Below are positions 38,551 to 49,905 of a DNA stretch of 58,574 bases, piece after piece. Below the pieces are notes generated by a model. It did no database searches, was not told the DNA's origin, and worked only from the letters and a program-made list of their open reading frames with translations. Numbering within the stretch: position 1 is the first letter of the stretch; each line of letters opens with the position of its first letter. A program made the translations under genes and the position numbers. Source of the DNA: an uncultured Gammaproteobacteria bacterium (GTDB lineage Bacteria > Patescibacteriota > Microgenomatia > Daviesbacterales > UBA10151); the NCBI GenBank assembly GCA_964394855.1, contig CAYMZD010000002.1:1-58574 (forward strand), read 5' to 3'.

Positions 38551-39594
38551 CTAGTATGCCAGGGATAAGTTGGGATTGGCTTGTAATTTTAAAGGATCCT
38601 TAAGTGGTTTCCCCCAAAAAGCCGCTGCAGCTATCATGGCCGCATTATCGGTACATAAATAAGGGGGTGGAACATGTAGTTTAACCCTTAATTCTAAATT
38701 CTTAATTCTTAATTCTAAATCAGAAACTAGTTTCTGATTTGCAGCTACTCCTCCTGCCACCATAATTTGTTCAACATGATAAGTCTGGGTTGCTCGAATA
38801 GTTTTTTCCACCAGCACATCCACTATGGCCTGTTCAATAGAGGTAGCTAAGTTGCATTTCACCTTTGAGGTGTAGCTGCTTTTTTTCGCCTCGAATGTGT
38901 GTATTAGATTAGCCACGGCTGTTTTTAATCCGGAAAAAGAAAAATCCCAGCCAAAGGCTGGTCGTCCTTTGGACGAAATCATGGGTCGGGGAAGGTCAAA
39001 GGCCCCAGGATCCCCATTTTGGGCTAGTTTAGAAATCTCTGGACCACCAGGATAGGGTAATCCCAAAAGCCTGGCGCATTTATCAAAACACTCACCAGCT
39101 GCATCATCTCTGGTTCCCCCAAGGTATTTATATTTGCCATGATCCTGAAATAAGACCAAATCAGTATGGCCCCCGGAAACCAAAAGGCCAATGCAGGGAA
39201 ATTGTGGTGTTACACTTTGAGCGATCCAATTAGCATAAAAATGTCCAATTAAATGATTTACAGGGATTAATGGTTTCTGCCATACCAATCTTAAAGTTTT
39301 GGCAGTTTCCACTCCCACCAGGAGTGATCCAATCAGCCCTGGGCCATAGGCTACTGCAATAGCATCCAGTCCGGTAGGACTGCACTGAGCCTGTTGAAGT
39401 GTTTCCTCAATCACTGGAATAATAGATTTAATCTGTTCCCGGGCTGCTTGCTCGGGAATAACCCCACCATATTTAGCTTGTAGGGAAGCACTTGAAGCCA
39501 CCACATTGGATAAAATTTGTATTCGGCCGTTTTTCTGTTGTAAAACAGCCGCCCCGGTTTCATCACATGTGGTTTCAATACCCAGAATTATCAT
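38551..39594 (-). CDS. tsaD: tRNA threonylcarbamoyladenosine transferase subunit
   Basis: GIETTCDETG, GPGL.GSL, VNHLIGH, VSGGHT, DDAAGE.FDK, FSFSGLKT, CTDNAAMIA. Confidence 0.97.
   Translation of the reverse strand: MIILGIETTCDETGAAVLQQKNGRIQILSNVVASSASLQAKYGGVIPEQAAREQIKSIIPVIEETLQQAQCSPTGLDAIAVAYGPGLIGSLLVGVETAKTLRLVWQKPLIPVNHLIGHFYANWIAQSVTPQFPCIGLLVSGGHTDLVLFQDHGKYKYLGGTRDDAAGECFDKCARLLGLPYPGGPEISKLAQNGDPGAFDLPRPMISSKGRPAFGWDFSFSGLKTAVANLIHTFEAKKSSYTSKVKCNLATSIEQAIVDVLVEKTIRATQTYHVEQIMVAGGVAANQKLVSDLELRIKNLELRVKLHVPPPYLCTDNAAMIAAAAFWGKPLKDPLKLQANPNLSLAY
38682..38721. repeat. Heptamer tandem repeat inside tsaD
   Basis: (T/A)AATTCT units in tandem, encoding LELRIKNLELRV. Confidence 0.8.
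38947..38976. repeat. Intragenic twin-hairpin element in tsaD
   Basis: CCAGCC-AAA-GGCTGG followed by TCGTCC-TTT-GGACGA; 30 bp, in frame. Confidence 0.85.
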
Positions 39595-39634
39595 ATAACT
39601 GGAATTTTAGCACAGGAAATTATAAAATGCGCAT

Positions 39635-40138
39635 ATGAATTGTGAAATTTGTACCAATGAAATTGGTGATAAAATAGTACTCCTTCAACAAAGCCAACCT
39701 GATGGTAGGTTCGAAATCCTTGTTTGTATCTCCTGTGCAGAAAAAAGTGAATTTTATTGCCTGACTCATCAAAGGCCTCATTTGGGCTTTCCCGACAGTA
39801 CCAGTGCTTGCATGATATGTATAGATGAGGCAGTGGAGCAAGACGGTGAGAGACTGGCGGGAATTTTTGGGGTGGTGATTGATAGATCTTCCAGAGCACA
39901 AGAGATTCAAGAGGCAATACAGGGGTGGCAGAGACAAATTGAATCTATGTTTCCCCATGTAAGCCTAGCAGATCTCCCCCTGGCTATTCAATGGAAAGGA
40001 ACCCCTTTTAGTCTAAATGTTATCAGAACAGTGGTAACAAGGGCGAAGAGAATGAGGGTTACTCCTGAAGAGGTGATTAACTTGGTGGCCCAAGAGGGTC
40101 CGGAGGTAATTTTGCCACCCCTGGACCTTGATGAATAA
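39635..40138 (+). CDS. Hypothetical Cys-rich protein
   Basis: CEIC, CISC, C..H, C.IC motifs; divergent from tsaD. Confidence 0.65.
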   Translation: MNCEICTNEIGDKIVLLQQSQPDGRFEILVCISCAEKSEFYCLTHQRPHLGFPDSTSACMICIDEAVEQDGERLAGIFGVVIDRSSRAQEIQEAIQGWQRQIESMFPHVSLADLPLAIQWKGTPFSLNVIRTVVTRAKRMRVTPEEVINLVAQEGPEVILPPLDLDE

Positions 40139-40146
40139 TTGCCATC

Positions 40147-40176
40147 TTGACACCCGACCATATAGTCTAGTATATT
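40147..40176 (+). promoter_or_regulatory. Promoter of the LexA-like gene with a near-palindrome in the spacer
   Basis: TTGACA, 18 nt, TATATT, 6 nt before ATG; GACCATATAGTC lies between the hexamers. Confidence 0.6.
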
Positions 40177-40182
40177 AAATTC

Positions 40183-40824
40183 ATGGGTAAATCCACTATT
40201 TCGGAAAGGCAAAAACAGCTTCTAGGGGTGATATATAAATATATTAAAGATACAGGCTACCCCCCTTCTTTTGAAGACATGAAAGACAACCTGGGTGTAG
40301 TTTCCAACCAGTCAATACTCGATCTTTTGATTAAATTGGAAGGTCAAAAACTTATAAAGCGTAACGAATCCCAAGCCAGGGGGATAGCTATTTTACCCAT
40401 AGGTTACAAGGCGCTTGGTAAACCCCCTCTTGTCCCTTTTTTGGGCATTACCCATGCTGGCTCCCCAATTTCTGCCATAGAGATTAGCGGGCAGTGGCAA
40501 ACGATTTCACCGGATGTTGCTCGTCTGCAAGATGAAGTATTTGTGCTAAAGATTTCAGGGGATTCAATGGTAAATGCCGGAATTGAAGATGGCGATGTAG
40601 TTCTGGTTAAAAGTGCCAAAGAATTTTCATCCGGAGATATAGTCTTGGCAGATGTAGACGGCGAGACAACTGTTAAAAGATTTATTTCCGAAGATAAACC
40701 ACCTTATTTATATTTAAAACCGGAAAATCCAGAGCATAATATTATCTACTTTACTGAAAGAGTAACTTTGAGGGGTAAGATAATCTCAATTCTTAAGAAA
40801 GGACAGTGGGTTTCTGCTGCCTAA
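40183..40824 (+). CDS. lexA: LexA-like repressor (winged HTH plus S24 peptidase)
   Basis: GYPPSF..M, ARGI, HAG cleavage site, GDSM catalytic Ser, TVKR catalytic Lys. Confidence 0.9.
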   Translation: MGKSTISERQKQLLGVIYKYIKDTGYPPSFEDMKDNLGVVSNQSILDLLIKLEGQKLIKRNESQARGIAILPIGYKALGKPPLVPFLGITHAGSPISAIEISGQWQTISPDVARLQDEVFVLKISGDSMVNAGIEDGDVVLVKSAKEFSSGDIVLADVDGETTVKRFISEDKPPYLYLKPENPEHNIIYFTERVTLRGKIISILKKGQWVSAA

Positions 40825-40833
40825 ATCTTATAT

Positions 40834-42786
40834 ATGCCTACGATAAAGCCTAATAAATCAGAAGAAATAATTGGTGAAATCTTTAAGGATCAGGAGACAG
40901 TGTATGGTCTTAAAGAGTTTGAAGGCATAGATATTTATGACGTTTTGCATATCAGTGAGCAAGAACCGCACCGTTTTTACATTAAGGATCTAAAAACAGG
41001 CAACCAAAGATTTGTCTACGATGAGCAAAAAAAGACCGGCAAACCTGAGGAAATAGTCCGCCAGCTTTGGCTTTATAAATTGCATCACCAGTATCTTTAT
41101 CCCCTTGACCGCATTGATCTTGAAAAAAGCATACATTTTGGACGTGAAGTTCATACAAAAGCCGCGGATATCGTGGTTTATAAAAAAGACAAGATTACGC
41201 CTTACATCATTGTCGAAGTGAAAAATCCCAATGAGAAAAAAGCAATAGATCAATTAAAGAGTTACTTAAATTCAGAAGGGTGCGAAATAGGAGTTTGGTC
41301 AAACGGAGTAGAGAAAGTTGTTTTATATCGCCCATATCCTAAAGAATTTGAAGATTCCCTGGTTGATATCCCAAGAGAAAATCAGACTATAGATGATCTT
41401 TTTGAAATCAAAAGGAAATGGTCTCAGCTTAATCCCAAATTTGATTTTGTGGAAATTGTTAAACATATAGAGGAATTGGCTCTTGCAGGTTCTGGAGCTA
41501 ATGTTTTTGAAGAAATCTTTAAGATACTTTATGCAAAGCTCTATGATGAAAAACTTGCGAGGGAAAGAAGGGAAGGTGAAGAGGTACTTTTTAGAAAATA
41601 CAAAGACCCTGAAAAGACATATGAAATAATTAACGACCTGTTTAAAAACGCGATAAGAGAGTGGCCCGATACTTTTGAATTATCGGATAGAATTAGGCTA
41701 TCTCCTGTTAGACTTAATGTCTGTGTGCCATTCTTGGAAAATGTCAGACTTTTCGAAGTTGGCCAAGGTGAACTTGAAATCATAGACAGCGCATTTGAGT
41801 ATCTTATAACGGAAGTTTCTAAAGGAAAGAAGGGTCAATATTTCACGCCACGCCATGTTATTAAGATGTGCGTCCGCATACTTAACCCAAAGGATAATGA
41901 ATATGTAATTGATCCTGCCTGCGGGTCTGGAGGGTTTCTACTCCACACCATGTACCATGTTTGGGAAAATCTCCACACAGAAGCAGCCAAAAGAGAATAT
42001 GCTGGCCGCTACCTTTTTGGAGTGGACTTTGACGATAATATGCGTCGTATTTCTCAAGCCCTTATGCTTATTGCGGGTGACGGCAGACACCATATTTTTA
42101 AAAGGGATTCTTTGGATGCTAGAGACTGGCAGGGAGTGGAAAGCGAAGATGCGAGAGTTGCCCTAAGAACGCTTACACACAGATTTGAAAACTCATCAGA
42201 AGAAAAAGAAAATCAAATTTCTTACCGGTTTTTAGATTTTGATGTTTTGCTGACCAATCCTCCATTTGCGGGAGAAAACCCAGAATCCGGTCTACTTCGC
42301 CAGTATGAACTTGCTAAAAAAGACGGGAAGTTGCGAAACAATGTAGAGCGCCACATTCTTTTTATTGAACGATCACTAGATGCGATTAAACCGGGCGGAA
42401 GATTAGCGATAGTTCTACCACAGGGGGTTTTAAACAATACCAATATGGAATATATCAGAAATTGGCTGTTTGAAAAAGCCAGGATTTTGGCGGTAGTTGG
42501 TTTGCACGGGAATACATTCAAACCTCACACCGGCACAAAGACCTCCGTGTTATTTTTGCAAAAATGGGACGAGAAAGAAGAGCCTCTAAAAGATTATCCC
42601 ATTTTTATGGCGGTTTCCAAAAAAGGCGGCAAAGATAATTCCGGGGAATACATTTACAAGAAAGACGATAAAGGAAATTATGTACATGATAGTAAAGGTA
42701 GAAAAGTTTTAGATCATGATTTAGATGAAATAGCGGATAGGTTTATCGAATTTGCCAAAAAAGAAGGATTTAGTTTTTGGAGGTAA
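40834..42786 (+). CDS. Fused restriction endonuclease and N6-adenine methyltransferase (type IIG/IIB-like)
   Basis: N-terminal PEEIVRQ..ADIVV..IVEVK nuclease domain; GQYFTPR, DPACGSGGFL, NPPF motifs. Confidence 0.92.
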   Translation: MPTIKPNKSEEIIGEIFKDQETVYGLKEFEGIDIYDVLHISEQEPHRFYIKDLKTGNQRFVYDEQKKTGKPEEIVRQLWLYKLHHQYLYPLDRIDLEKSIHFGREVHTKAADIVVYKKDKITPYIIVEVKNPNEKKAIDQLKSYLNSEGCEIGVWSNGVEKVVLYRPYPKEFEDSLVDIPRENQTIDDLFEIKRKWSQLNPKFDFVEIVKHIEELALAGSGANVFEEIFKILYAKLYDEKLARERREGEEVLFRKYKDPEKTYEIINDLFKNAIREWPDTFELSDRIRLSPVRLNVCVPFLENVRLFEVGQGELEIIDSAFEYLITEVSKGKKGQYFTPRHVIKMCVRILNPKDNEYVIDPACGSGGFLLHTMYHVWENLHTEAAKREYAGRYLFGVDFDDNMRRISQALMLIAGDGRHHIFKRDSLDARDWQGVESEDARVALRTLTHRFENSSEEKENQISYRFLDFDVLLTNPPFAGENPESGLLRQYELAKKDGKLRNNVERHILFIERSLDAIKPGGRLAIVLPQGVLNNTNMEYIRNWLFEKARILAVVGLHGNTFKPHTGTKTSVLFLQKWDEKEEPLKDYPIFMAVSKKGGKDNSGEYIYKKDDKGNYVHDSKGRKVLDHDLDEIADRFIEFAKKEGFSFWR

Positions 42787-42788
42787 GA

Positions 42789-43595
42789 ATGCTAGAACGT
42801 ACATTTATTCAAAAATGGAGAACTTTTTTAAGTATTATATTTTCTCCAGGTTCCATTATCCCATTTATTTTATCAGCCTTATGTTTGTTTTTAGCAATAT
42901 CTGTTTTTACAGGTGCTCTATCTAGTCTGCTATCAATATTTGCTTCTATTTTAACCGCTATAGCAGGATTTTTTGTAAAAGAGGATTGGGATAGAGTACA
43001 AGGTAATACAATGCTAGAGAAAAAGGGACGATCTGCAATCAGGAATCTTGGATCAATTGAGCAACAAATTATTCAGATAAGAAATTGGATTAAGAATTTT
43101 CTAGGAAGTAAGAATATAACTGAGAGGGAATTAAAAGAAATTGATCGTCACCTTACTACTACTCAAATGAATATTAAATCTGGGTTAGAAGACTGGATAG
43201 ACATAGTGCCTGAATTGAAGAAAAAAGAAGAATTCGCAAAAAAATATCAAGAAACATTAGAGGCTAATATGGAAGAGCTTTTAAAAAAAGAAGCTGAACT
43301 ATTAAAAATTGGGGAAACAAATAAGGAGCTAAAAGTACAACTAGAAAAGAGGATAAAAGAATTAGAGAAACGAGTACAAGAGTTGAAAAGCGAACAATCA
43401 AATGTGTTTGGTGGACTTATGCCTTCAACCTCCCCATATTCATTCGTAACTATCTCACCATCAGGTTCTGGTACGCTATCTAATTTACTTCCCAAGACTT
43501 GTTCAATTTGTGGAAAGGTTTACAAGGATGACAATAGTCCAACTATTTCCCTAAATGATGTGTGCCCAGAATGCAAAAGACGGGGTAGAGATTAG
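42789..43595 (+). CDS. Hypothetical protein: two TM helices, coiled coil, C-terminal zinc ribbon
   Basis: GGAGGT SD, hydrophobic N-terminus, heptad-rich region, CSIC..CPEC. Confidence 0.8.
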   Translation: MLERTFIQKWRTFLSIIFSPGSIIPFILSALCLFLAISVFTGALSSLLSIFASILTAIAGFFVKEDWDRVQGNTMLEKKGRSAIRNLGSIEQQIIQIRNWIKNFLGSKNITERELKEIDRHLTTTQMNIKSGLEDWIDIVPELKKKEEFAKKYQETLEANMEELLKKEAELLKIGETNKELKVQLEKRIKELEKRVQELKSEQSNVFGGLMPSTSPYSFVTISPSGSGTLSNLLPKTCSICGKVYKDDNSPTISLNDVCPECKRRGRD

Positions 43596-43670
43596 ATGAT
43601 CAACTTTTCCATAATCCAAAAATCTCAACTTGATGGTTCGACAGGCTCACCACAAGAGGAGCACATATGA
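43596..43670 (+). pseudogene. Vestigial specificity-subunit N-terminus
   Basis: MINFSIIQKSQLDG resembles MITYSIIKRSELEG of the downstream S gene; diverges at a palindrome. Confidence 0.65.
43634..43652. repeat. Short palindrome (TGAGCCTG.CGAA family)
   Basis: TGGTTCGACAGGCTCACCA. Confidence 0.75.
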
Positions 43671-45025
43671 TTACTTATTCGATAATCAAAAGGAGTGAGT
43701 TAGAGGGGGTTTTGCGGCTGGATGCGGAATATTACCAGCCGGAATATTTTATTGATTTCAGCAAAGGCAATTGGTTGCCAATTAGGGAAACTTTAGAAGT
43801 TTGCCAGTATGGAATATCTAAGGACATGAATGAAAATGGGATAGGGTTTCCTATTTTTAGAATGAACGACATTAAAAATGCTTTCCTTGCTGAAGATGAA
43901 TTAAAATATGCAGATATACCTGATGACCTTTTAGCAGAATATAAACTTGAGAGAGATGACATACTATTTAATAGGGTAAACGCAGAAGAATTTGTTGGCA
44001 GGACAGGAATAGTTAAACTAATTGATCATTTTGTTTTTGCTTCCTATCTAATTAGATTACGTACAAAAAAGAATGGAATTATAAAGCCTGATTATCTAAA
44101 TATTTTCTTAAATTCAAGTTATGGTATTAAACAAATAAGAAAATTTAGAAGACGTGCAGTAAATCAAGCTAATGTAAATGCTGAAGAACTAAAACAAATA
44201 AGAATCCCTGTTTTATCGCTAAACATTCAGGAAGAAATCAGTAAATTATCAAATGAATCATGGAATCAAACAGAACAGTCGAAATCTTATTACCAACAGG
44301 CCGAGAACTTCCTTTTGGAGGAGTTGGGATTTAAGGACTTTCGGGTTGAAGATGATTTAAGTTTTGTTGTTAATCTTTCAGACGTAAAATCTGCAAAACG
44401 GGTTGATGCGGATTATTTCCAGCCAAAGTATCAAAAGTTAGTTGAACAGATTGAAAAACATAATGCAAAACTACTTGGTAATTTAGTTTCGATGAAGAAA
44501 GGTTTTGAGCCGGGAAGTGAGGCATATCAAGAAGAAGGTAAACTTTTCATTAGAGTTAGCAGTCTCTCTAAATTTGGCATTGAGGATAAAGATCAAAAAT
44601 ATTTAAGTGATGATTTATACGGAAAACTTAAGGTAAACTTTGAACCAAAAATAGGCGAAATTTTATTAACAAAGGATGCAACTCCTGGTATAGCCTATGT
44701 TTTAAAAGAAGCAGTAGAAGGAATAATATCTGGGGGAATGATGAGATTAAAGGTAAATAATGATATTGACCCAGAATATCTAGCTTTATGTATAAGTTCT
44801 TTAACTGGTCAAATGCAAGCAGGAAGAGATGCAGGAGGATCAATAATAGCTCATTGGAAACCAGAACAAATCAAGAATTTATTAATTCCAGTTCTACCAA
44901 AACCCACCCAACAAAAAATTGCAGAGTTGGTCAGGAAATCCCATGAAGCAAGGAAGAAATCAAAGCAGCTTTTAGAAGAGGCAAAAAGAAAAGTTGAAGA
45001 AATGATAGAGGAGAAATCAAATTAA
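43667..45025 (+). CDS. hsdS: Restriction-modification specificity subunit with two TRDs
   Basis: RLDAEYY and RVDADYF repeats, FASYLIRLR, YLNIFLNS, L.IP.L..QQKIA. Confidence 0.9.
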   Translation: MITYSIIKRSELEGVLRLDAEYYQPEYFIDFSKGNWLPIRETLEVCQYGISKDMNENGIGFPIFRMNDIKNAFLAEDELKYADIPDDLLAEYKLERDDILFNRVNAEEFVGRTGIVKLIDHFVFASYLIRLRTKKNGIIKPDYLNIFLNSSYGIKQIRKFRRRAVNQANVNAEELKQIRIPVLSLNIQEEISKLSNESWNQTEQSKSYYQQAENFLLEELGFKDFRVEDDLSFVVNLSDVKSAKRVDADYFQPKYQKLVEQIEKHNAKLLGNLVSMKKGFEPGSEAYQEEGKLFIRVSSLSKFGIEDKDQKYLSDDLYGKLKVNFEPKIGEILLTKDATPGIAYVLKEAVEGIISGGMMRLKVNNDIDPEYLALCISSLTGQMQAGRDAGGSIIAHWKPEQIKNLLIPVLPKPTQQKIAELVRKSHEARKKSKQLLEEAKRKVEEMIEEKSN

Positions 45026-45103
45026 ATGACCAATAAACAAGCTGGGGATTTGGGGGAGAAAGATGGTATATTTAAAGCAGGGAAATTTTCAAAAAGGAGG
45101 TGA
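45026..45103 (+). pseudogene. Possible YraN-like N-terminal remnant
   Basis: MTNKQAGDLGEK resembles the GxxGE start of YraN proteins; stops after 25 aa. Confidence 0.35.
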
Positions 45104-45109
45104 GGATAA

Positions 45110-45358
45110 ATGGCAATATTTTTAGGGGTACACAAATTTGAACCAGGGATGAGCGAAGATGATATCAGGAGTGGCTATGAGAAATACAAAGAAAGTGCCA
45201 TTGAGGCAGGATTAAAACCACTTGGGGCTATGGTAAGCTTGGAAAAAGGATTTGCCTATTGTCAGACTGAAGCCCAGTCGCCAGAGCAAGTCAGAGAAGC
45301 TCATCAAAAAGTAGAAATCCCCCTGGAAGATGTAGTAGAGGTCAGACTTTTAAGTTAA
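45110..45358 (+). CDS. DUF4242-like small protein
   Basis: GGAGG SD; VHK..AYC..EA.SPE.VREAH pattern. Confidence 0.7.
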   Translation: MAIFLGVHKFEPGMSEDDIRSGYEKYKESAIEAGLKPLGAMVSLEKGFAYCQTEAQSPEQVREAHQKVEIPLEDVVEVRLLS

Positions 45359-45395
45359 ACACAAAACCATGGATGGGGATTTTGGGGAAATATAG

Positions 45396-45791
45396 TTAAT
45401 GTAGATGGATGAAACCAGGCAGACGATGCTGCAGAGCCATCCTTTTAAGGTCTGTGGTATTCCGCTGACTAAGGCCGTAAACATTAGCCAATTGGTCAAT
45501 AGTATGGTTTAAGAAAGCAGATAGCCAATCACCCCTTTCACCCAGGCGATCCCGCATGGCGGTTATTTTTCCATGAAGTGTGGTAACAACATCCAGTGCA
45601 GTCAGATGTAGACCATGTGCTTGTTCAAATTTAGCAACAAGTAGAGCTTCTGTGTCGGCTGCAGTCATTTGAGAGCCGGCATATTCGACATTGATACCAA
45701 GCTCTTCTGCCTGTTGTGTAGTCCTGGCTGCATGCCAGCTGCCGGCAGCAAGAGCTAAGGTTTCAGGTAGATCAATTTGCCATTGGGACAT
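45396..45791 (-). CDS. Hypothetical protein
   Basis: 131-codon helical ORF; no family recognised. Confidence 0.6.
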   Translation of the reverse strand: MSQWQIDLPETLALAAGSWHAARTTQQAEELGINVEYAGSQMTAADTEALLVAKFEQAHGLHLTALDVVTTLHGKITAMRDRLGERGDWLSAFLNHTIDQLANVYGLSQRNTTDLKRMALQHRLPGFIHLH

Positions 45792-45803
45792 AGTTATTCT
45801 TTT

Positions 45804-45932
45804 TTATTCCTCCGGATAATTTGTAGGGGTTGCACGACTGCGGTGCAATCTAGTTCTCCCTGTTCGTAGATTGATGGCAAGCTCTGTATCAAACTGTGGT
45901 AGTGGCGGTTGAGAACCGCTTTCTTTACCCAT
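45804..45932 (-). CDS. Small ORF (42 aa), below the ORF-track cutoff
   Basis: MGKESGSQPPLPQFDTELAINLRTGRTRLHRSRATPTNYPEE; TATAAT 7 nt before ATG. Confidence 0.4.
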   Translation of the reverse strand: MGKESGSQPPLPQFDTELAINLRTGRTRLHRSRATPTNYPEE

Positions 45933-46035
45933 GATCTTAATTATACAACTTTCTTAAAATTTTAGACAGAGTTAAGGAATGTAACTTAACTGTTAAGCAC
46001 CGCAAACTTGCTTCTTTGTGTATAATTAAATTAAC

Positions 46036-46287
46036 ATGGCTGTTGAATCTGATCAAGAAGAGCTTGAAGTATATGGGATAATTACAGAGATTGAATCAAG
46101 AGTATGTAGAGGAGTACTTTCTATGGATGTCTATAATCCCAAAGACCCTTTAATCATGAAGTTTGCAGAATTAAGAGAAGCAGTTAAGGACTTGGCTAGA
46201 CAAGGGGGTGATTTAAGGGGTAGTAATAATCACCACCAAGGTAACTCCAGCTTATTGGCAAGATTTATGTTATTCTGGAGAAGATGA
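46036..46287 (+). CDS. Hypothetical protein
   Basis: 83-codon ORF with TATAAT 9 nt upstream. Confidence 0.55.
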   Translation: MAVESDQEELEVYGIITEIESRVCRGVLSMDVYNPKDPLIMKFAELREAVKDLARQGGDLRGSNNHHQGNSSLLARFMLFWRR

Positions 46288-46526
46288 CTAAAAAAGCCTT
46301 TGTGGTTATTTTAATTTTAAGTGTGGTGGTAACTATAGGTATACCTTTTATTGGATTTATCACGACAAATTATCAAGTTATGTCAGGATGGCCGCTTAGA
46401 TTTACTGGCTTTTCATTTTTGGGGAGTACTACAAACTATACAACACTTCTTCTTGATATAGCTTTTTGGTTTGTAATAATTTGGGGAATTTGGAAAGTTT
46501 TACAAAAAGTTACTGCGAAGAGATAA
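46284..46526 (+). CDS. Small two-TM membrane protein
   Basis: Two hydrophobic segments with GWPL..F loop; ATGA overlap with the upstream gene. Confidence 0.7.
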   Translation: MTKKAFVVILILSVVVTIGIPFIGFITTNYQVMSGWPLRFTGFSFLGSTTNYTTLLLDIAFWFVIIWGIWKVLQKVTAKR

Positions 46527-46799
46527 TTATTTCTTCTTTCCTTGATCGTGTGGAACAATAACTTCTTGGGTAACTAACGAAGTATTTCCTGCAAGGTCAG
46601 TAGCCAATATCTTTATTATATATTTTCTCCCATCTTTATCATCTTCTCTTCTTGAAGCTGGCAGCTTAATTATTTGGTTGATTTCTGTCTGATTTTGGAT
46701 GGTTATTGAAGGTTCTATCAAATAATATTCATCATATACAAATACCGTTGTTTTATCTTTTTTCTCATTCCAGTGTGCTTTTAGCTTTTTTATCCACAC
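46527..46799 (-). pseudogene. Orphan C-terminal fragment of a secreted Ig-repeat protein
   Basis: KKDKTTV and ATDLAGNT resemble KKDKSTI and TDEAGNT of the 910-aa neighbour; ends VIVPHDQGKKK; no signal peptide. Confidence 0.45.
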
Positions 46800-46882: not shown

Positions 46883-47173
46883 TTATAGCTGTTGAGAAAC
46901 TATGCCTGCAGATAAGACAAAAATATTTAATAAAAAGACCCACAAAAGATAATAGATAATAAAGGTAAGAACTATTGTAATAATGTAATTTTTAGTTTTA
47001 AATGGTTTATTTACGATAAATTTCCTGGAAACTGCATAAATAATTAGAAAAATGATCATAAGAGCAATTATGCAATAGGTTAATAAGTTTCCAGTGCTAA
47101 ACATCCAGATAACATCAGGGCGTATGGTTTGAGTAAATGCCCCCCAAGAAAACCAATCAAATAAGCCAAACAT
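46883..47173 (-). CDS. Small membrane protein
   Basis: Two hydrophobic helices; directly follows the lipase-like gene. Confidence 0.65.
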   Translation of the reverse strand: MFGLFDWFSWGAFTQTIRPDVIWMFSTGNLLTYCIIALMIIFLIIYAVSRKFIVNKPFKTKNYIITIVLTFIIYYLLWVFLLNIFVLSAGIVSQQL

Positions 47174-49905
47174 TAATAAGTAGCCTCCAGATTGCCATAA
47201 TTTGTATTAAGCTGTAGGATTACTAACCCATCTTTAACTTCTTTAACTTTTTCTTCTTTTGGCTCTTTCATAATTATGGTACTTTTGTCCTTTTTTACAT
47301 CATAGCGAATCCTGATTTTAATTTCACCTTTTTGTTCAAAACTTTGTTCTTTAACATTTATTTTACTTTTTTTGCCTTGGTATGTAACATTAAAATGGTT
47401 GTTTTCCAAAACTTGTACAGGGTTATTGTTATATTGGAGAGAATAAATTCTGAAGCGGTCTTGTTTAATTTTATCTCTTTCCCTGACATCAATCTTTAAG
47501 GTATTGCCTGCTTCATCGGTAATTACGAAGAACGCATCATCTTTTCTCTTTGTTGCGATATTATCTGTACGCTGGACAGTGGTTGGATTTTGGTCAATTC
47601 CCCGGGCTTCCAAATCATTTTTGTCAGAATTTACGGAAATTTTTGCTTCAGGGGCTGTTTTATCGATTTTAATCTCCGTTTGTTTGGTTTGTTCCAGATT
47701 CCCTACCAAATCCGATGAACGGTAATAAACTGTAGTTATTCCTTCGTTGTTGATTACAAAAGGTGCAGTATATTTCTGCCAAGTGGAATTATCAAAACTG
47801 TATTTAATTTCTTTCAGGCCAGCTCCGCCTTCATTATCAACTGCCAATAAAGAAAGGTTTACATCTGATAAAAACCAGCCATTATTACCAGTTGTTCCCT
47901 GAAGTTGGGTTGTGGTAGATGGGGGAATATTATCAACGGGCCGCAATTGTAGGGGTTGGGGAGTTTGGGGATTGAAATTTAAATTATAGTCAAGATTTAC
48001 TCCCAAACTAGCTGTTCCCTGATTGATAACACTTTCGGTTTTGGTGGAAGTATAATAATCAACGCCAACATGATAATCTCCGCTGCCGGTTCCGGTTAAG
48101 GCAATTTTATAATCACCAGATGGATTTTCCACAAACACCCATTTCATTGCGCCTGTTGGATCAATCAAGGATTCTCCCACAGGATTTCCCTGACTATCTT
48201 TCACAGATAGAGTTACCGGCGATGCTACCCAAGCTACCATTACTTCATCGGGTGCGCCGGCTAAATTAGAGGGGGTATATGTGGCACCCAGTTTATCAAA
48301 AATTAATGAGGCGGCTGCGTTAGGCAGATTGGCGTGTTTGTCTGCCAAAGTTAATCCCGTGGTATTGGCAAGATTACTGCTTGAAACCAGGACGGTATTA
48401 TCTCCATCGGCAGTAGCGGCGCTGCCAAGCGGTTTGCCGTCCTCCCAAAGATATGGGTGAGTATAGTTTTCTATTTGCAGCTTTTCCCAGGTATTTTGGC
48501 CTGTGCCAATAATGTTAAATAACTCCACGCCTTTTTGAGCAAAGATATTGGCCGTATTTTGAGGATTAGAAGTATTTTTAAGAAAGTTATTAATCTCCTG
48601 CATATCTGTCCAGCTGAAAGGATTACCATTATTAATCAGATAATCGTAGCCGATTGGCAGTAAATCCTTGATTCCCTTCATGCGGTTATGAATCATTTGA
48701 TATGGTTCCTCATTGAAATTAAAAGATAATAATTTAATCATTACACTCAAGCCTGCTTTACTCACAGGATCCCAATTAGGAGGAACTTCTGCCCCTTCCC
48801 AGGTGTAATATGCAAAAAGGGAACCGGCATTAGGAGAACCTACCAGAAAAGCTTTACTAATATCATTACGGTAATTTGGCGACTCAATATAACTTCTGAC
48901 GACCAGCCCTCCCAGACTATGTGCCACTACATTAACTTTGTTAATTCCAGGATTAGCTGTTTTAGCTTTATCAATAGTTTCTGCCAGATATTTTTTTGCA
49001 GGAAGAGCAGCTCCCGGATCCGAATCAGTCCAGTCATTGGTTTTTCTCCAGTCATAAAAGGCAATAAAATAATCTTTGTCTTTTTGGTAGCCAGCTTTTT
49101 CCAAAGAGTCGATAAACTGTCTCCATCCACCTTCAGCAGCATACATCCAAGTCCAACCAGAGTCACCCCTGTCAGCGAGCACCCCTAAATTTGATGATGC
49201 TGCAATTCCCGGGATTAAAATTAAGGGAATTTTAGTGGGGAGGGCTTGCACCCTAATGTAGTCCACATTAAATCTGGTCCAGTTGCCCGCAGGAACTTGG
49301 ACATAATTTCCCATCCAGATATATTGCACTTTATTTGTGGTTTCTCCTGATGTAAAAACCAAGTCCCCGTCTAAATAAACAAAATACCTAGTTCCTTTTC
49401 TTTCCACCCTAAAAATATGGGTATCTAAATTAATGGAAGTGGTAAAAACAATTTGGCCATAGTATTCAAGGCGCATATTGGATAAAAACAAGTCTTGCCA
49501 AACATCAATTCTAATTAGCTCTGGAGCTTGGGGGTTTTGGATGGGATCTTTATCAGTTAAGGCAATACCTGTGCCATATCCTGTGACTTGGGTATATTGA
49601 AATTTGATTTCTGTAGTGAAATCACCCTCCGGGAAAATTTGATTTTTGCTAATAACAAAAGGAAATTTATCAGAATTTACCTGATTTAAATTTAAGTTAC
49701 CTAAATTTTCTTGAATAGTAGTGATACCAGGTGGGTTGTTAGGATAAACATTCCATTTATCAGGATCCAGGGTATTGGCAGGGCGGATTAAATTAAACTC
49801 TTCCTGAAAAAGATATTCCTGGGCTAAAACCGGAGAAGAAAAGAAAAGGATTGGAATAAAAAGAAGGGATATTCGCAGTAAAGCTGATAGTAATAATTTA
49901 CACAC
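47173..49905 (-). CDS. Large secreted alpha/beta-hydrolase (LCAT/PGAP1-like lipase) with lectin-like and Ig-like domains
   Basis: Signal peptide ending VLA; LIPGIAAS, FYDWR, AHSLGG nucleophile elbow, DGDNTV, H; C-terminal TDxAGN Ig-like repeats. Confidence 0.82.
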   Translation of the reverse strand: MCKLLLSALLRISLLFIPILFFSSPVLAQEYLFQEEFNLIRPANTLDPDKWNVYPNNPPGITTIQENLGNLNLNQVNSDKFPFVISKNQIFPEGDFTTEIKFQYTQVTGYGTGIALTDKDPIQNPQAPELIRIDVWQDLFLSNMRLEYYGQIVFTTSINLDTHIFRVERKGTRYFVYLDGDLVFTSGETTNKVQYIWMGNYVQVPAGNWTRFNVDYIRVQALPTKIPLILIPGIAASSNLGVLADRGDSGWTWMYAAEGGWRQFIDSLEKAGYQKDKDYFIAFYDWRKTNDWTDSDPGAALPAKKYLAETIDKAKTANPGINKVNVVAHSLGGLVVRSYIESPNYRNDISKAFLVGSPNAGSLFAYYTWEGAEVPPNWDPVSKAGLSVMIKLLSFNFNEEPYQMIHNRMKGIKDLLPIGYDYLINNGNPFSWTDMQEINNFLKNTSNPQNTANIFAQKGVELFNIIGTGQNTWEKLQIENYTHPYLWEDGKPLGSAATADGDNTVLVSSSNLANTTGLTLADKHANLPNAAASLIFDKLGATYTPSNLAGAPDEVMVAWVASPVTLSVKDSQGNPVGESLIDPTGAMKWVFVENPSGDYKIALTGTGSGDYHVGVDYYTSTKTESVINQGTASLGVNLDYNLNFNPQTPQPLQLRPVDNIPPSTTTQLQGTTGNNGWFLSDVNLSLLAVDNEGGAGLKEIKYSFDNSTWQKYTAPFVINNEGITTVYYRSSDLVGNLEQTKQTEIKIDKTAPEAKISVNSDKNDLEARGIDQNPTTVQRTDNIATKRKDDAFFVITDEAGNTLKIDVRERDKIKQDRFRIYSLQYNNNPVQVLENNHFNVTYQGKKSKINVKEQSFEQKGEIKIRIRYDVKKDKSTIIMKEPKEEKVKEVKDGLVILQLNTNYGNLEATY

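What the first reader, a model, noticed from the sequence alone, without database searches (positions are those of the whole stretch)
47173..49905. 910-aa secreted lipase/acyltransferase-like protein in a probable lipid auxotroph
It has a signal peptide, a lectin-like domain, an LCAT/PLA2-type hydrolase with an apparently complete Ser-Asp-His set, and Ig-like stalk repeats. CPR bacteria generally lack fatty-acid synthesis, and how they obtain lipids is unresolved. A surface-displayed phospholipase or transacylase is a candidate for harvesting host lipids or attacking competitors (inference).
Basis: partly seen in the sequence, partly recalled or inferred. Interest (0 to 1): 0.62.

Follow-up and report, generated by a model that had tools for sequence, protein, structure and literature searches.

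The report
Exported LCAT-type lipase of a CPR bacterium
An ultra-small Daviesbacteria (CPR) bacterium whose genome lacks key genes for making fatty acids and phospholipids encodes an exported enzyme related to the animal lipid enzymes LCAT and lysosomal phospholipase A2, which makes it a concrete but untested candidate for how such bacteria break open or harvest other cells' membranes.

Summary
The ORF at 47173-49905 (-) encodes 910 aa with these parts: a signal peptide, a non-catalytic ConA/GH16-like lectin domain, an LCAT-family alpha/beta hydrolase and four Ig-like beta domains. The hydrolase passes the Pfam PF02450 cutoff, and human LCAT is its top structural match. Ser330, Asp502 and His524 are invariant in 20 of 20 homologues.

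The lipid-auxotrophy premise was tested on the 99%-complete, 764-kb genome. It has no ketoacyl synthase, PlsY, CdsA, DegV or patatin. It does have one fusion of an acyl-AMP ligase, a carrier domain and a PlsC acyltransferase, which could re-acylate imported lysolipids.

New here:
- The same lectin head and Ig-like tail carry an M23 peptidoglycan peptidase instead of the lipase in related genomes.
- Two small membrane-protein genes are conserved partners.
- A leftover 3' end of a different lipase gene lies downstream.

Lipid substrate, surface retention and role in nutrition are inferred and untested. The gene is patchy: PF02450 occurs in 57 of 401 Patescibacteria genomes, so it is not a universal solution. 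The general idea is already published for Vampirococcus, and this scan has flagged the family many times.

Verdict: a real, moderately interesting, uncharacterised bacterial variant of a known enzyme family.

The parts
47173..49905 (-). Whole gene: 910-aa exported multidomain LCAT-family hydrolase (GTG start at 49905, TAA stop at 47173-47175).
49822..49905 (-). Signal peptide, aa 1-28 (MCKLLLSALLRISLLFIPILFFSSPVLA|QE).
   Evidence: It is the only hydrophobic segment outside the enzyme core. AF2 gives a helix at 2-21 followed by a linker with pLDDT below 50. Homologues have the same N-terminus. No predictor was run.
49246..49821 (-). N-terminal ConA/GH16-like beta-jelly-roll lectin-like domain, aa 29-220, non-catalytic.
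   Evidence: Foldseek matches GH16 and Rv0315-like structures. There is no ExDx(x)E motif. Relatives hit PF06439. The domain is 51% identical to the head of the M23 peptidase P0016.
48271..49245 (-). LCAT-family alpha/beta hydrolase domain, aa 221-545, with a helical cap of about 95 aa (aa 362-457).
   Evidence: Pfam PF02450 scores 42.2 bits. The top Foldseek hit is human LCAT 6mvd_A, E 1.4e-10. The profile matches LipA, LCAT and LPLA2 in the PDB. hhalign to LCAT gives probability 94%.
48916..48918 (-). Codon of the nucleophile Ser330 (AHSLGG).
   Evidence: Invariant in 20 of 20 homologues. It aligns with LCAT Ser181. Codon checked.
48400..48402 (-). Codon of Asp502 (DGDNTV).
   Evidence: Invariant in 20 of 20 homologues. 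It aligns with LCAT Asp345 in DGDDTV. Codon checked.
48334..48336 (-). Codon of His524 (KHANLP), the presumed triad histidine.
   Evidence: Invariant in 20 of 20 homologues and located 22 residues after the Asp. It lies outside the hhalign range, so its equivalence to LCAT His377 is inferred.
47938..48270 (-). Beta-sandwich domain, aa 546-656, which accompanies the hydrolase even in distant relatives.
   Evidence: hits spanning 221-659 in P0068, P0079 and P0080
47650..47937 (-). OmpL47-type beta domain, aa 657-752.
   Evidence: NCBIfam NF047446 scores 62.7 bits against a cutoff of 40. This unit is repeated up to 41 times in giant proteins.
47176..47649 (-). C-terminal all-beta tail, aa 753-910, Lys-rich, with no Pfam family. 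Relatives with this tail carry either LCAT-like hydrolases or M23 peptidases.
46883..47173 (-). 96-aa membrane protein (two hydrophobic spans). Its ATG overlaps the lipase stop (TAATG). Conserved downstream partner.
   Evidence: 85% identity in L006, 79% in L008, 31% in L005/L009; dN/dS 0.20
46527..46799 (-). 90-aa orphan ORF, a leftover 3' end of a different (P0017-type) LCAT-like gene.
   Evidence: It is 76% identical over 70 aa to the C-terminus of P0017. A longer remnant of about 200 aa lies at the same place in G200.
46284..46526 (+). 80-aa two-span membrane protein lying convergent to the 3' end of LCAT-like genes.
   Evidence: Homologues abut the 3' end of LCAT-like genes in 5 loci: the window, L008, L002, L011 and L016.

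Best explanation
The gene encodes a Sec-exported, catalytically competent serine hydrolase of the LCAT / lysosomal-PLA2 / lipase lineage. It most likely acts outside the cell on acyl-ester lipids (phospholipids or glycerolipids) of other cells or of cell debris. It would work as a phospholipase A or lipase, and possibly as a transacylase.

Shown:
- The domain order is signal peptide, non-catalytic lectin-like head, LCAT-family hydrolase with an intact Ser330-Asp502-His524 set and a helical cap, then four Ig-like beta domains.
- The genome lacks key genes of fatty-acid and CDP-diacylglycerol phospholipid synthesis.
- The genome has one acyl-AMP ligase + carrier domain + PlsC acyltransferase fusion.
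- Related genomes place an M23 peptidoglycan peptidase between the same head and tail.

Inferred:
- The lectin head and Ig-like tail bring the enzyme to a foreign envelope or hold it at the cell's own surface.
- Hydrolysis releases free fatty acids and lysolipids.
- These products are taken up and re-acylated by the ligase-carrier-PlsC fusion.
- The small membrane proteins (the coupled 96-aa one and the convergent 80-aa one) act as docking, hand-over or self-protection partners.
- Feeding and envelope attack may be two faces of one activity.
For: Family and catalytic residues:
- Pfam LCAT scores 42.2 bits (cutoff 21) and PGAP1 scores 28.1 (cutoff 24.3).
- A profile of 20 homologues hits only lipid-ester enzymes at the top of the PDB list: LipA 5.6e-12, family I lipases about 1e-7 to 1e-8, LCAT 5.9e-8, and LPLA2 2.4e-7 over 280 profile positions.
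- The AF2 model has mean pLDDT 88. Its best Foldseek match is human LCAT (E 1.4e-10, 422 columns), followed by the lipase BlEst2.
- hhalign places YDWR on YDWR, Ser330 on LCAT Ser181 and Asp502 on LCAT Asp345.
- Ser, Asp, His and YDWR are invariant in 20 of 20 homologues.
- dN/dS against the G200 orthologue is 0.11.

Export: there is an N-terminal hydrophobic leader only, and no other membrane span.

Lipid dependence of the genome (99.3% complete):
- Ketoacyl synthase is absent, while controls give 14 of 14.
- PlsY, CdsA, DegV and patatin are also absent.
- The only PlsC-type acyltransferase is fused to an AMP-binding ligase and a PP-binding carrier domain.

Envelope-directed scaffold:
- M23 peptidases share the head (51% identity) and the tail (42% identity).
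- The 8 of 10 sampled relatives with a full tail match carry either an LCAT-like or an M23 domain.

Partners: the 96-aa gene is coupled and conserved in 4 loci, and the 80-aa gene is conserved in 5 loci.

Literature:
- Lysolipids are enriched in CPR cells, and phospholipase A was named as a possible source (PMC7242380).
- Lipid uptake and breakdown mechanisms are 'not identified' in Patescibacteria (PMC11665869).
Against: - No activity data exist, and no bacterial PF02450 protein that I know of has been characterised. Substrate is therefore inferred from distant relatives (14-16% identity to LCAT in the structural alignment, TM about 0.5).
- In this protein the Pfam LCAT match covers only profile positions 69-169. 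The segment that forms the membrane-binding domain in animal LCAT and LPLA2 is largely missing.
- No surface anchor is evident.
- The gene is accessory. PF02450 is in 57 of 401 Patescibacteria genomes, and close orthologues are in only 2 of 95 other family genomes.
- The genome also encodes other exported hydrolases that could serve lipid needs: one GDSL enzyme, one alpha/beta hydrolase with a signal peptide, and one membrane-anchored alpha/beta hydrolase.
- Sharing a scaffold with a peptidoglycan peptidase and carrying a glycan-type lectin head would fit a cell-wall ester substrate equally well.
Confidence: 0.6

Rival explanations
1. It has the same lipid-ester chemistry, but its purpose is antagonism or envelope breaching and not nutrition. 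In this reading it is a secreted membrane-damaging effector that works alongside cell-wall hydrolases. The small membrane proteins would act as self-protection (immunity) factors, and the locus would turn over as effector loci do.
For: - The head and tail are shared with M23 peptidoglycan peptidases.
- Distribution is patchy and accessory, and G200 has two copies.
- A displaced 3' remnant of another lipase gene lies downstream, and there are conserved small membrane genes next to the enzyme.
- Secreted phospholipases and peptidoglycan hydrolases have been proposed to breach the host envelope in Vampirococcus (PMC8080830).
Against: - It is not exclusive of feeding, because the products of attack are exactly what this genome appears able to salvage.
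- The conserved part is the tail and the swapped parts are the head and the catalytic core, which is the reverse of classical polymorphic toxins.
- Nothing shows that the small proteins protect against the enzyme.
- No dedicated secretion or delivery system lies beside the gene.
Confidence: 0.25
2. It is an esterase for a non-lipid or wall-bound ester, such as O-acetyl groups of peptidoglycan, esters on teichoic or other wall polymers, or polyesters such as PHB. The glycan-type lectin head would aim it at cell walls, as for the M23 paralogues.
For: - The N-terminal domain has a glycan-binding or glucanase fold.
- The scaffold is shared with a peptidoglycan peptidase.
- The PHB depolymerase PhaZ7 appears among the profile hits (E about 1e-4).
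- The LCAT-type membrane-binding insertion is truncated.
Against: - All stronger sequence and fold matches are long-chain lipid enzymes: LipA, family I lipases, LCAT, LPLA2, BlEst2 and PGAP1.
- A helical cap of about 95 residues over the active site is typical of interfacial lipases.
- Known peptidoglycan O-acetyl esterases are SGNH/GDSL enzymes (my knowledge), which is a different fold.
Confidence: 0.1
3. It remodels the bacterium's own envelope. It could make lysolipids in its own membrane (proposed to relieve curvature stress in tiny cells), or it could transfer acyl chains onto its own surface lipids or proteins, with no foreign membrane needed.
For: - Lysolipids are enriched in CPR cell fractions (PMC7242380).
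- LCAT-family enzymes are natural transacylases (established for LCAT, LPLA2 and PDAT; my knowledge).
- The enzyme is tightly coupled to a small membrane protein of the same cell.
Against: - A housekeeping remodelling enzyme should be broadly conserved, but this one is patchy even within the family.
- A long lectin head and a four-domain stalk suggest reach to an external target.
- A cell that cannot make lipids gains nothing by degrading its own.
Confidence: 0.05

Closest known systems
Animal LCAT and lysosomal phospholipase A2 (LPLA2/PLA2G15), Pfam PF02450; PDB 6mvd, 4xwg, 4x90
   Same: - It has an alpha/beta hydrolase core with the YDWR motif and the nucleophile in a small-H-S-x-G elbow (AHSLG here, GHSLG in LCAT).
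- The acid residue sits in DGDxTV.
- A helical cap lies between the nucleophile and the acid.
- Human LCAT is the best structural match (E 1.4e-10), and the profile matches LCAT at 5.9e-8 and LPLA2 at 2.4e-7.
- Like these enzymes it is an exported protein that would meet lipid at an interface.
   Different: - Identity is only 14-16% in the structural alignment, and TM is about 0.5.
- The insertion of about 60-85 residues that forms the membrane-binding domain is reduced to about 25 residues here. Sister proteins P0015, P0017 and P0023 keep a longer insertion.
- It is bacterial and is flanked by a lectin head and four Ig-like domains.
- It has small membrane-protein partners.
- No activity is known.
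Bacillus subtilis lipase A (family I.4, Pfam Lipase_2 PF01674; PDB 1i6w, 5ct8)
   Same: - It gives the highest profile score in the PDB (E 5.6e-12).
- It has the same A-H-S-x-G-G nucleophile elbow and the same layout of the strands around it.
   Different: - The match covers only about 90 residues.
- LipA is a minimal 181-aa enzyme with no cap, whereas this domain has about 325 residues with a cap of about 95.
- Pfam Lipase_2 scores 16.6 bits, below its cutoff of 20.3.
Secreted phospholipase proposed for host-lipid use in the CPR predator Vampirococcus lugosii (Moreira et al. 2021, PMC8080830)
   Same: - The idea is the same: a lipid-auxotrophic CPR bacterium exports a phospholipase that may disrupt the host membrane and supply lipids.
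- It is proposed to work alongside secreted peptidoglycan hydrolases.
   Different: - That proposal is a one-sentence genomic inference about one gene.
- I did not compare the two sequences, so whether that gene belongs to PF02450 is unknown to me.
- No partner genes, shared scaffold or salvage enzyme were described there.
E. coli Aas (2-acyl-GPE acyltransferase / acyl-ACP synthetase), as a comparator for the salvage enzyme elsewhere in this genome
   Same: It combines a PlsC-type acyltransferase with an AMP-forming acyl ligase, the chemistry used to re-acylate imported lysophospholipids (my knowledge of Aas; domains found).
   Different: - The order here is ligase, then carrier domain, then acyltransferase, with a built-in PP-binding domain.
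- Its substrate is untested.
- It lies on another contig (C3) and is not linked to the lipase gene.

Membership tests
LCAT family (Pfam PF02450) | Match to the family HMM above the curated gathering score | tested here: met
   The score is 42.2 bits against a cutoff of 21, E 8e-11, but only profile positions 69-169 of 392 are covered. Relatives P0159 and G077 match positions 54-378.
LCAT family (Pfam PF02450) | Nucleophile Ser and acid Asp at the positions of LCAT Ser181 and Asp345, plus the YDWR motif | tested here: met
   hhalign gives probability 94% and places AHS330LGG on GHS181LGC, DGD502NTV on DGD345DTV and YDWR on YDWR. All these residues are invariant in 20 of 20 homologues.
LCAT family (Pfam PF02450) | Catalytic His equivalent to LCAT His377 | tested here: inconclusive
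   His524 is invariant and lies 22 residues after the Asp, compared with 32 in LCAT. The hhalign alignment ends before it. I could not inspect model coordinates to check triad geometry.
LCAT family (Pfam PF02450) | Overall fold closest to LCAT or LPLA2 | tested here: met
   The top Foldseek hit is 6mvd_A (LCAT): E 1.4e-10, 422 columns, TM 0.51 normalised by target length. The query was the full-length model, so this domain was not searched on its own.
LCAT family (Pfam PF02450) | Membrane-binding domain (the insertion after the first strands in animal LCAT and LPLA2) | tested here: not met
   Only about 25 residues (aa 236-260, containing GWTWMY) lie where LCAT has about 85. The profile-to-4xwg match pairs 155 profile positions with 215 chain residues. 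This lowers the claim of orthology to the animal enzymes but not Pfam membership.
LCAT family (Pfam PF02450) | Cap domain or lid over the active site | tested here: inconclusive
   A helical insertion at aa 362-457 lies between the nucleophile strand and the Asp strand in the model. No residue-level comparison with the LCAT lid was possible.
LCAT family (Pfam PF02450) | Phospholipase A or acyltransferase activity | not testable with these tools
   This needs enzyme assays.
Lipase class 2 / family I.4 (B. subtilis LipA, PF01674) | A-x-S-x-G elbow, a minimal lid-less fold of about 180 aa, and a Pfam score above the cutoff | tested here: not met
   The elbow AHSLGG is present and the profile E-value is 5.6e-12. 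However, Pfam scores 16.6 against a cutoff of 20.3, and the domain is about 325 aa with a cap.
PGAP1-like (PF07819) | Match above the gathering score | tested here: met
   The score is 28.1 bits against a cutoff of 24.3, covering profile positions 3-131 of 233. It overlaps the stronger LCAT hit. PDB GPI inositol deacylase is matched only weakly (E 0.02).
GH16 glycoside hydrolases (N-terminal domain) | Beta-jelly-roll fold plus the catalytic motif ExDx(x)E | tested here: not met
   The fold matches (E 1e-8 to 1e-9) but no ExDx(x)E is present in aa 1-225. The nearest look-alike, EGDFTTE, is not conserved in homologues. It is therefore lectin-like and not an enzyme.
OmpL47-type beta-barrel domain (NCBIfam NF047446) | Match above the curated cutoff | tested here: met
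   The score is 62.7 bits against a cutoff of 40, at aa 680-747.
Polymorphic toxin / effector-immunity locus | A conserved delivery part with a variable C-terminal toxin, a cognate immunity gene directly downstream, and orphan toxin-immunity modules | tested here: not met
   The C-terminal tail is the conserved part, and the head and the central enzyme are what vary. A coupled small membrane gene and an orphan 3' remnant do exist, but the remnant is a non-catalytic tail and no immunity function is shown.

The most novel reading that the evidence does not exclude
The exported LCAT-like enzyme, its small membrane partners and the ligase-carrier-PlsC fusion together form a complete route for living on other cells' membranes. 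The steps would be:
1. The lectin/Ig scaffold docks on a host envelope. This is the same scaffold that carries an M23 wall peptidase in sister genomes.
2. The enzyme strips acyl chains or makes lysolipids, by hydrolysis or by cofactor-free transacylation.
3. The small membrane proteins receive the products or shield the producer.
4. The cytoplasmic fusion rebuilds diacyl lipids.

This would be the first defined lipid-acquisition pathway in Patescibacteria.
Probability: 0.2. Interest if true: 0.8.

Novelty: new variant of a known kind. Interest (0 to 1): 0.55.

Why it matters
How CPR/Patescibacteria obtain membrane lipids is an acknowledged gap. [quoted passage not shown] Lipidomics points to lysolipids taken from neighbours (PMC7242380).

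This gene gives that question a concrete, expressible protein in a genome where the need is demonstrable: no ketoacyl synthase, PlsY or CdsA. The same genome also holds a plausible downstream salvage enzyme.

The shared head-and-tail scaffold with M23 peptidases suggests a modular family of envelope-directed exoenzymes in Microgenomates. The conserved small membrane partners are an undescribed feature of a bacterial LCAT-family enzyme.

The limits are real. Nothing is assayed, the gene is accessory, and the general idea has been voiced before (PMC8080830).

Tried and rejected
1. Paralogues in the same genome. A search with the whole protein found only the gene itself, so the M23-on-same-scaffold form is absent here.

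2. Single-sequence search of the PDB gave only marginal LipA hits (E 0.02). A profile was needed. Searching with relative P0159 did not bring LCAT to the top.

3. Tail function. A tail-only AF2 model (pLDDT 89) matched nothing in the PDB at E <= 1e-3. It gave only generic Ig, PKD, FN3 and adhesin-stalk folds in the PDB and in BFVD. No specific binding function can be named.

4. GH16 glycosidase activity of the head is rejected because the catalytic motif is absent and the look-alike is not conserved.

5. Covalent or lipid anchoring is rejected on sequence, since there is no LPXTG, no lipobox and no C-terminal membrane span.

6. A classical polymorphic-toxin reading is rejected because the variable and conserved parts are the wrong way round.

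7. Phage lysis cassette (lipase plus holin-like small membrane proteins). I considered this and set it aside for three reasons: the gene has a signal peptide, it sits between housekeeping genes, and that neighbourhood (LigT, PD-(D/E)XK nuclease, TsaD) is kept in another metagenome contig.

8. The 96-aa and 80-aa proteins are not related to each other or to the gene downstream of the M23 paralogue. Neither has a Pfam family.

9. Literature searches found no paper on bacterial or CPR PF02450 enzymes.


Full report

Yes. The window has an open frame at 47173..49905 on the minus strand. It has 910 codons, a GTG start and a TAA stop. GTG is the only start codon that keeps the hydrophobic leader, and the next in-frame Met is residue 143. 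An identical 910-aa product is already on record (P0002).

Thirteen orthologues at 59-76% identity exist. Named ones come from Candidatus Daviesbacteria, a Microgenomates lineage of the CPR/Patescibacteria. Against the orthologue in genome G200 the gene shows dN/dS 0.11. It is therefore a real gene under purifying selection.

**2. Anatomy**

- **Signal peptide, aa 1-28.** The sequence is MCKLLLSALLRISLLFIPILFFSSPVLA|QE. This is the only hydrophobic span outside the enzyme core. AF2 models it as a detached helix followed by a linker with pLDDT below 50. No signal-peptide predictor was available, so export is inferred from these features and from the same N-terminus in all homologues.
- **Lectin-like head, aa 29-220.** This is a beta-jelly-roll whose structural neighbours are GH16/ConA-like proteins. 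The GH16 catalytic motif is absent. Relatives hit PF06439. It is a lectin-like module and not a glycosidase.
- **Alpha/beta hydrolase, aa 221-545.** Details are in section 3.
- **Beta-sandwich, aa 546-656.** It accompanies the hydrolase even in distant relatives.
- **OmpL47-type domain, aa 657-752.** NCBIfam scores it at 62.7 bits against a cutoff of 40. The same unit is repeated up to 41 times in giant proteins.
- **Lys-rich all-beta tail, aa 753-910.** It has no Pfam family.

The full-length AF2 model has mean pLDDT 88.1.

**3. The enzyme domain**

Pfam scores LCAT (PF02450) at 42.2 bits against a cutoff of 21, and PGAP1 at 28.1 against 24.3. Weaker hits are all lipases or thioesterases.

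A profile built from 20 homologues finds these in the PDB:
- B. subtilis LipA at E 5.6e-12, covering about 90 residues around the AHSxGG elbow.
- Family I lipases at about 1e-7 to 1e-8.
- Human LCAT at 5.9e-8.
- LPLA2 at 2.4e-7, the longest match, covering 280 profile positions.
- The PHB depolymerase PhaZ7 only at about 1e-4.

Foldseek with the model ranks human LCAT first (6mvd_A, E 1.4e-10, 422 aligned columns, TM 0.51 normalised by target length). The Bacillus lipase BlEst2 comes next.

hhalign against human LCAT gives probability 94%. It puts YDWR on YDWR, Ser330 on Ser181 and Asp502 on Asp345.

Ser330, Asp502, His524 and YDWR are invariant in 20 of 20 homologues. His524 lies outside the hhalign range, and I could not inspect coordinates. 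The histidine assignment is therefore inferred.

The protein differs from the animal enzymes in one clear respect. The insertion that forms their membrane-binding domain is cut down to about 25 residues here. Sister proteins P0015, P0017 and P0023 keep a longer one. A helical cap of about 95 residues (aa 362-457) is present.

That test is not met.

**4. Is the organism a lipid auxotroph?**

I tested this on the window's own genome, which is 764 kb in 12 contigs and 99.3% complete.

- Ketoacyl synthase (PF00109) is absent, while all 14 control genomes have it.
- PlsY, CdsA, DegV/FakB and patatin are also absent.
- The single PlsC-type acyltransferase sits in an 869-aa protein made of an AMP-binding acyl ligase, a PP-binding carrier domain and the acyltransferase.
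- Its start is overlapped by the end of the preceding gene, which encodes a membrane-anchored alpha/beta hydrolase.

On this evidence the cell cannot make fatty acids, and it lacks the first glycerol-3-phosphate acylation step and the CDP-diacylglycerol step. It could still activate free fatty acids and attach them to a lysolipid, as E. coli Aas does (my knowledge of Aas). An extracellular phospholipase A would supply both substrates.

This fits the finding that lysolipids are enriched in CPR cells, and the suggestion there that phospholipase A may generate them (PMC7242380). The link between the two enzymes is an inference. They lie on different contigs.

**5. Context found here**

(a) *A shared scaffold with M23 peptidases.* M23 peptidases from related genomes share both the lectin head (51% identity over aa 20-232) and the Ig-like tail (42% over aa 658-910). 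An M23 domain takes the place of the hydrolase.
- I sampled ten relatives from the representative search. The eight with a full tail match carry either an LCAT-like or an M23 domain.
- In the family survey, six genomes have such M23-on-scaffold ORFs.
- Most close orthologues of the lipase carry a different N-terminal domain.
- The scaffold is thus modular, and its two known cargoes attack the two layers of a bacterial envelope.

(b) *A coupled 96-aa membrane protein.* Its gene starts on the last base of the lipase stop codon (TAATG). It is kept downstream in every orthologous locus I could read: 85% identity in L006, 79% in L008 and 31% in L005/L009.

(c) *A convergent 80-aa membrane protein.* This two-span protein is encoded convergently. 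Homologues abut the 3' end of LCAT-like genes in five loci whose enzymes are only 34-41% identical to this one. I found this before reading an earlier scan note that says the same.

(d) *An orphan 3' remnant.* Between the two small genes lies a 90-aa ORF that is 76% identical to the C-terminus of a different LCAT-like protein, P0017.
- In G200 the same position holds a remnant of about 200 aa.
- The simplest reading is that a P0017-type gene once sat next to the 80-aa gene. The present gene and its 96-aa partner then replaced most of it.
- dN/dS of the remnant is 0.12, but dS is saturated at 1.7. I cannot tell whether the remnant is still used.

**6. Distribution**

PF02450 occurs in 57 of 401 sampled Patescibacteria genomes and 48 of 320 genera, mostly in ORFs of 600-1180 aa. 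Among 14 control genomes it occurs in one.

Within the same family, close orthologues occur in only two other genomes, and roughly a fifth of genomes have some hydrolase-domain match. The gene is accessory.

The genome also has a GDSL enzyme and other exported alpha/beta hydrolases. This protein is therefore the most lipid-specific candidate but not the only one.

**7. Tail and anchoring**

A tail-only model (pLDDT 89) has no PDB match at E <= 1e-3. It resembles only generic Ig, PKD and FN3 adhesin stalks. There is no LPXTG, lipobox or C-terminal membrane span.

'Surface-displayed' is therefore unproven. Retention, if any, would be through the tail or the small membrane partners.

**8. Most likely mechanism**

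Shown:
- An exported LCAT-family serine hydrolase with an intact catalytic set.
- A lipid-dependent genome with a re-acylation enzyme.
- An envelope-directed modular scaffold.
- Conserved membrane partners.

Inferred:
- The enzyme acts as a phospholipase A, a lipase or a transacylase on foreign membranes or debris.
- Its products are salvaged.
- The partners dock the enzyme, receive its products or protect the producer.

I put 0.6 on this. The rivals are a purely antagonistic role (0.25, not exclusive of feeding), a wall-bound or non-lipid ester substrate (0.1) and remodelling of the cell's own envelope (0.05).

**9. Novelty**

The enzyme family is known, and the protein passes the Pfam threshold. 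The idea that a CPR bacterium exports a phospholipase to breach a host and obtain lipids is published for Vampirococcus (PMC8080830) and is mentioned in a 2024 perspective (PMC11665869).

My literature searches found no paper on bacterial or CPR PF02450 enzymes, their small membrane partners, or the scaffold shared with M23 peptidases. Earlier notes of this scan have flagged the same lipase-plus-partner theme in at least 53 genomes. Those are unchecked AI notes and I do not count them as evidence.

I rate this as a new variant of a known kind, with interest 0.55.

Noticed in passing
G000 contig C3:18192-21715 (outside the window): A likely lipid-salvage gene pair. The first gene encodes a membrane-anchored alpha/beta hydrolase (295 aa, GFSLGG). 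Its end overlaps the start of an 869-aa fusion of an AMP-binding acyl ligase, a PP-binding carrier domain and a PlsC-type acyltransferase. This is the only PlsC-type gene in a genome without KAS, PlsY, CdsA or DegV.
   Followed up: partly
window 46527-46799 (-); L008 567-~1170 (-): A 90-aa orphan ORF is 76% identical to the C-terminus of a different LCAT-like protein (P0017). At the same position in genome G200 the remnant is about 200 aa long and still open. dN/dS between the two remnants is 0.12 with dS saturated. The most likely origin is a displaced 3' end left by gene replacement. Whether it is still expressed is unknown.
   Followed up: partly
window 46284-46526 (+); L002 7584-7835; L011 3177-3407; L016 1267-1503; L008 350-571: An 80-aa two-span membrane protein is encoded convergently against the 3' end of LCAT-like genes in five loci. 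The enzymes at these loci are only 34-41% identical to this one. It has no Pfam family and is unrelated to the 96-aa partner.
   Followed up: partly
L007, L012, L014, L015, L018 (related Daviesbacteria-family genomes): M23 peptidases of 810-1010 aa carry the same lectin head and Ig-like tail as this lipase. This form is absent from the window's own genome. In L007 it is followed by an unrelated 179-aa single-span protein.
   Followed up: partly
window 39600-46200 compared with L006 6800-9800: In the syntenic metagenome contig L006 the lipase and its 96-aa partner are followed by two genes and then tsaD. In the window tsaD (38551-39594) is separated from them by the restriction-modification block and several small ORFs. 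This suggests an insertion in this genome.
   Followed up: no
G200 contigs C9 and C20: One genome of a sister genus has two full orthologues of this gene (75% and 68% identity) plus a third, more distant LCAT-like gene.
   Followed up: no
G000 C2:184867-185676 and C1:145560-146597: Two further exported hydrolases occur in the same genome. One is a GDSL/SGNH enzyme with an N-terminal membrane segment, and the other is a 345-aa alpha/beta hydrolase with a signal peptide (GHSLGG). Either could also act on lipids or wall esters.
   Followed up: no
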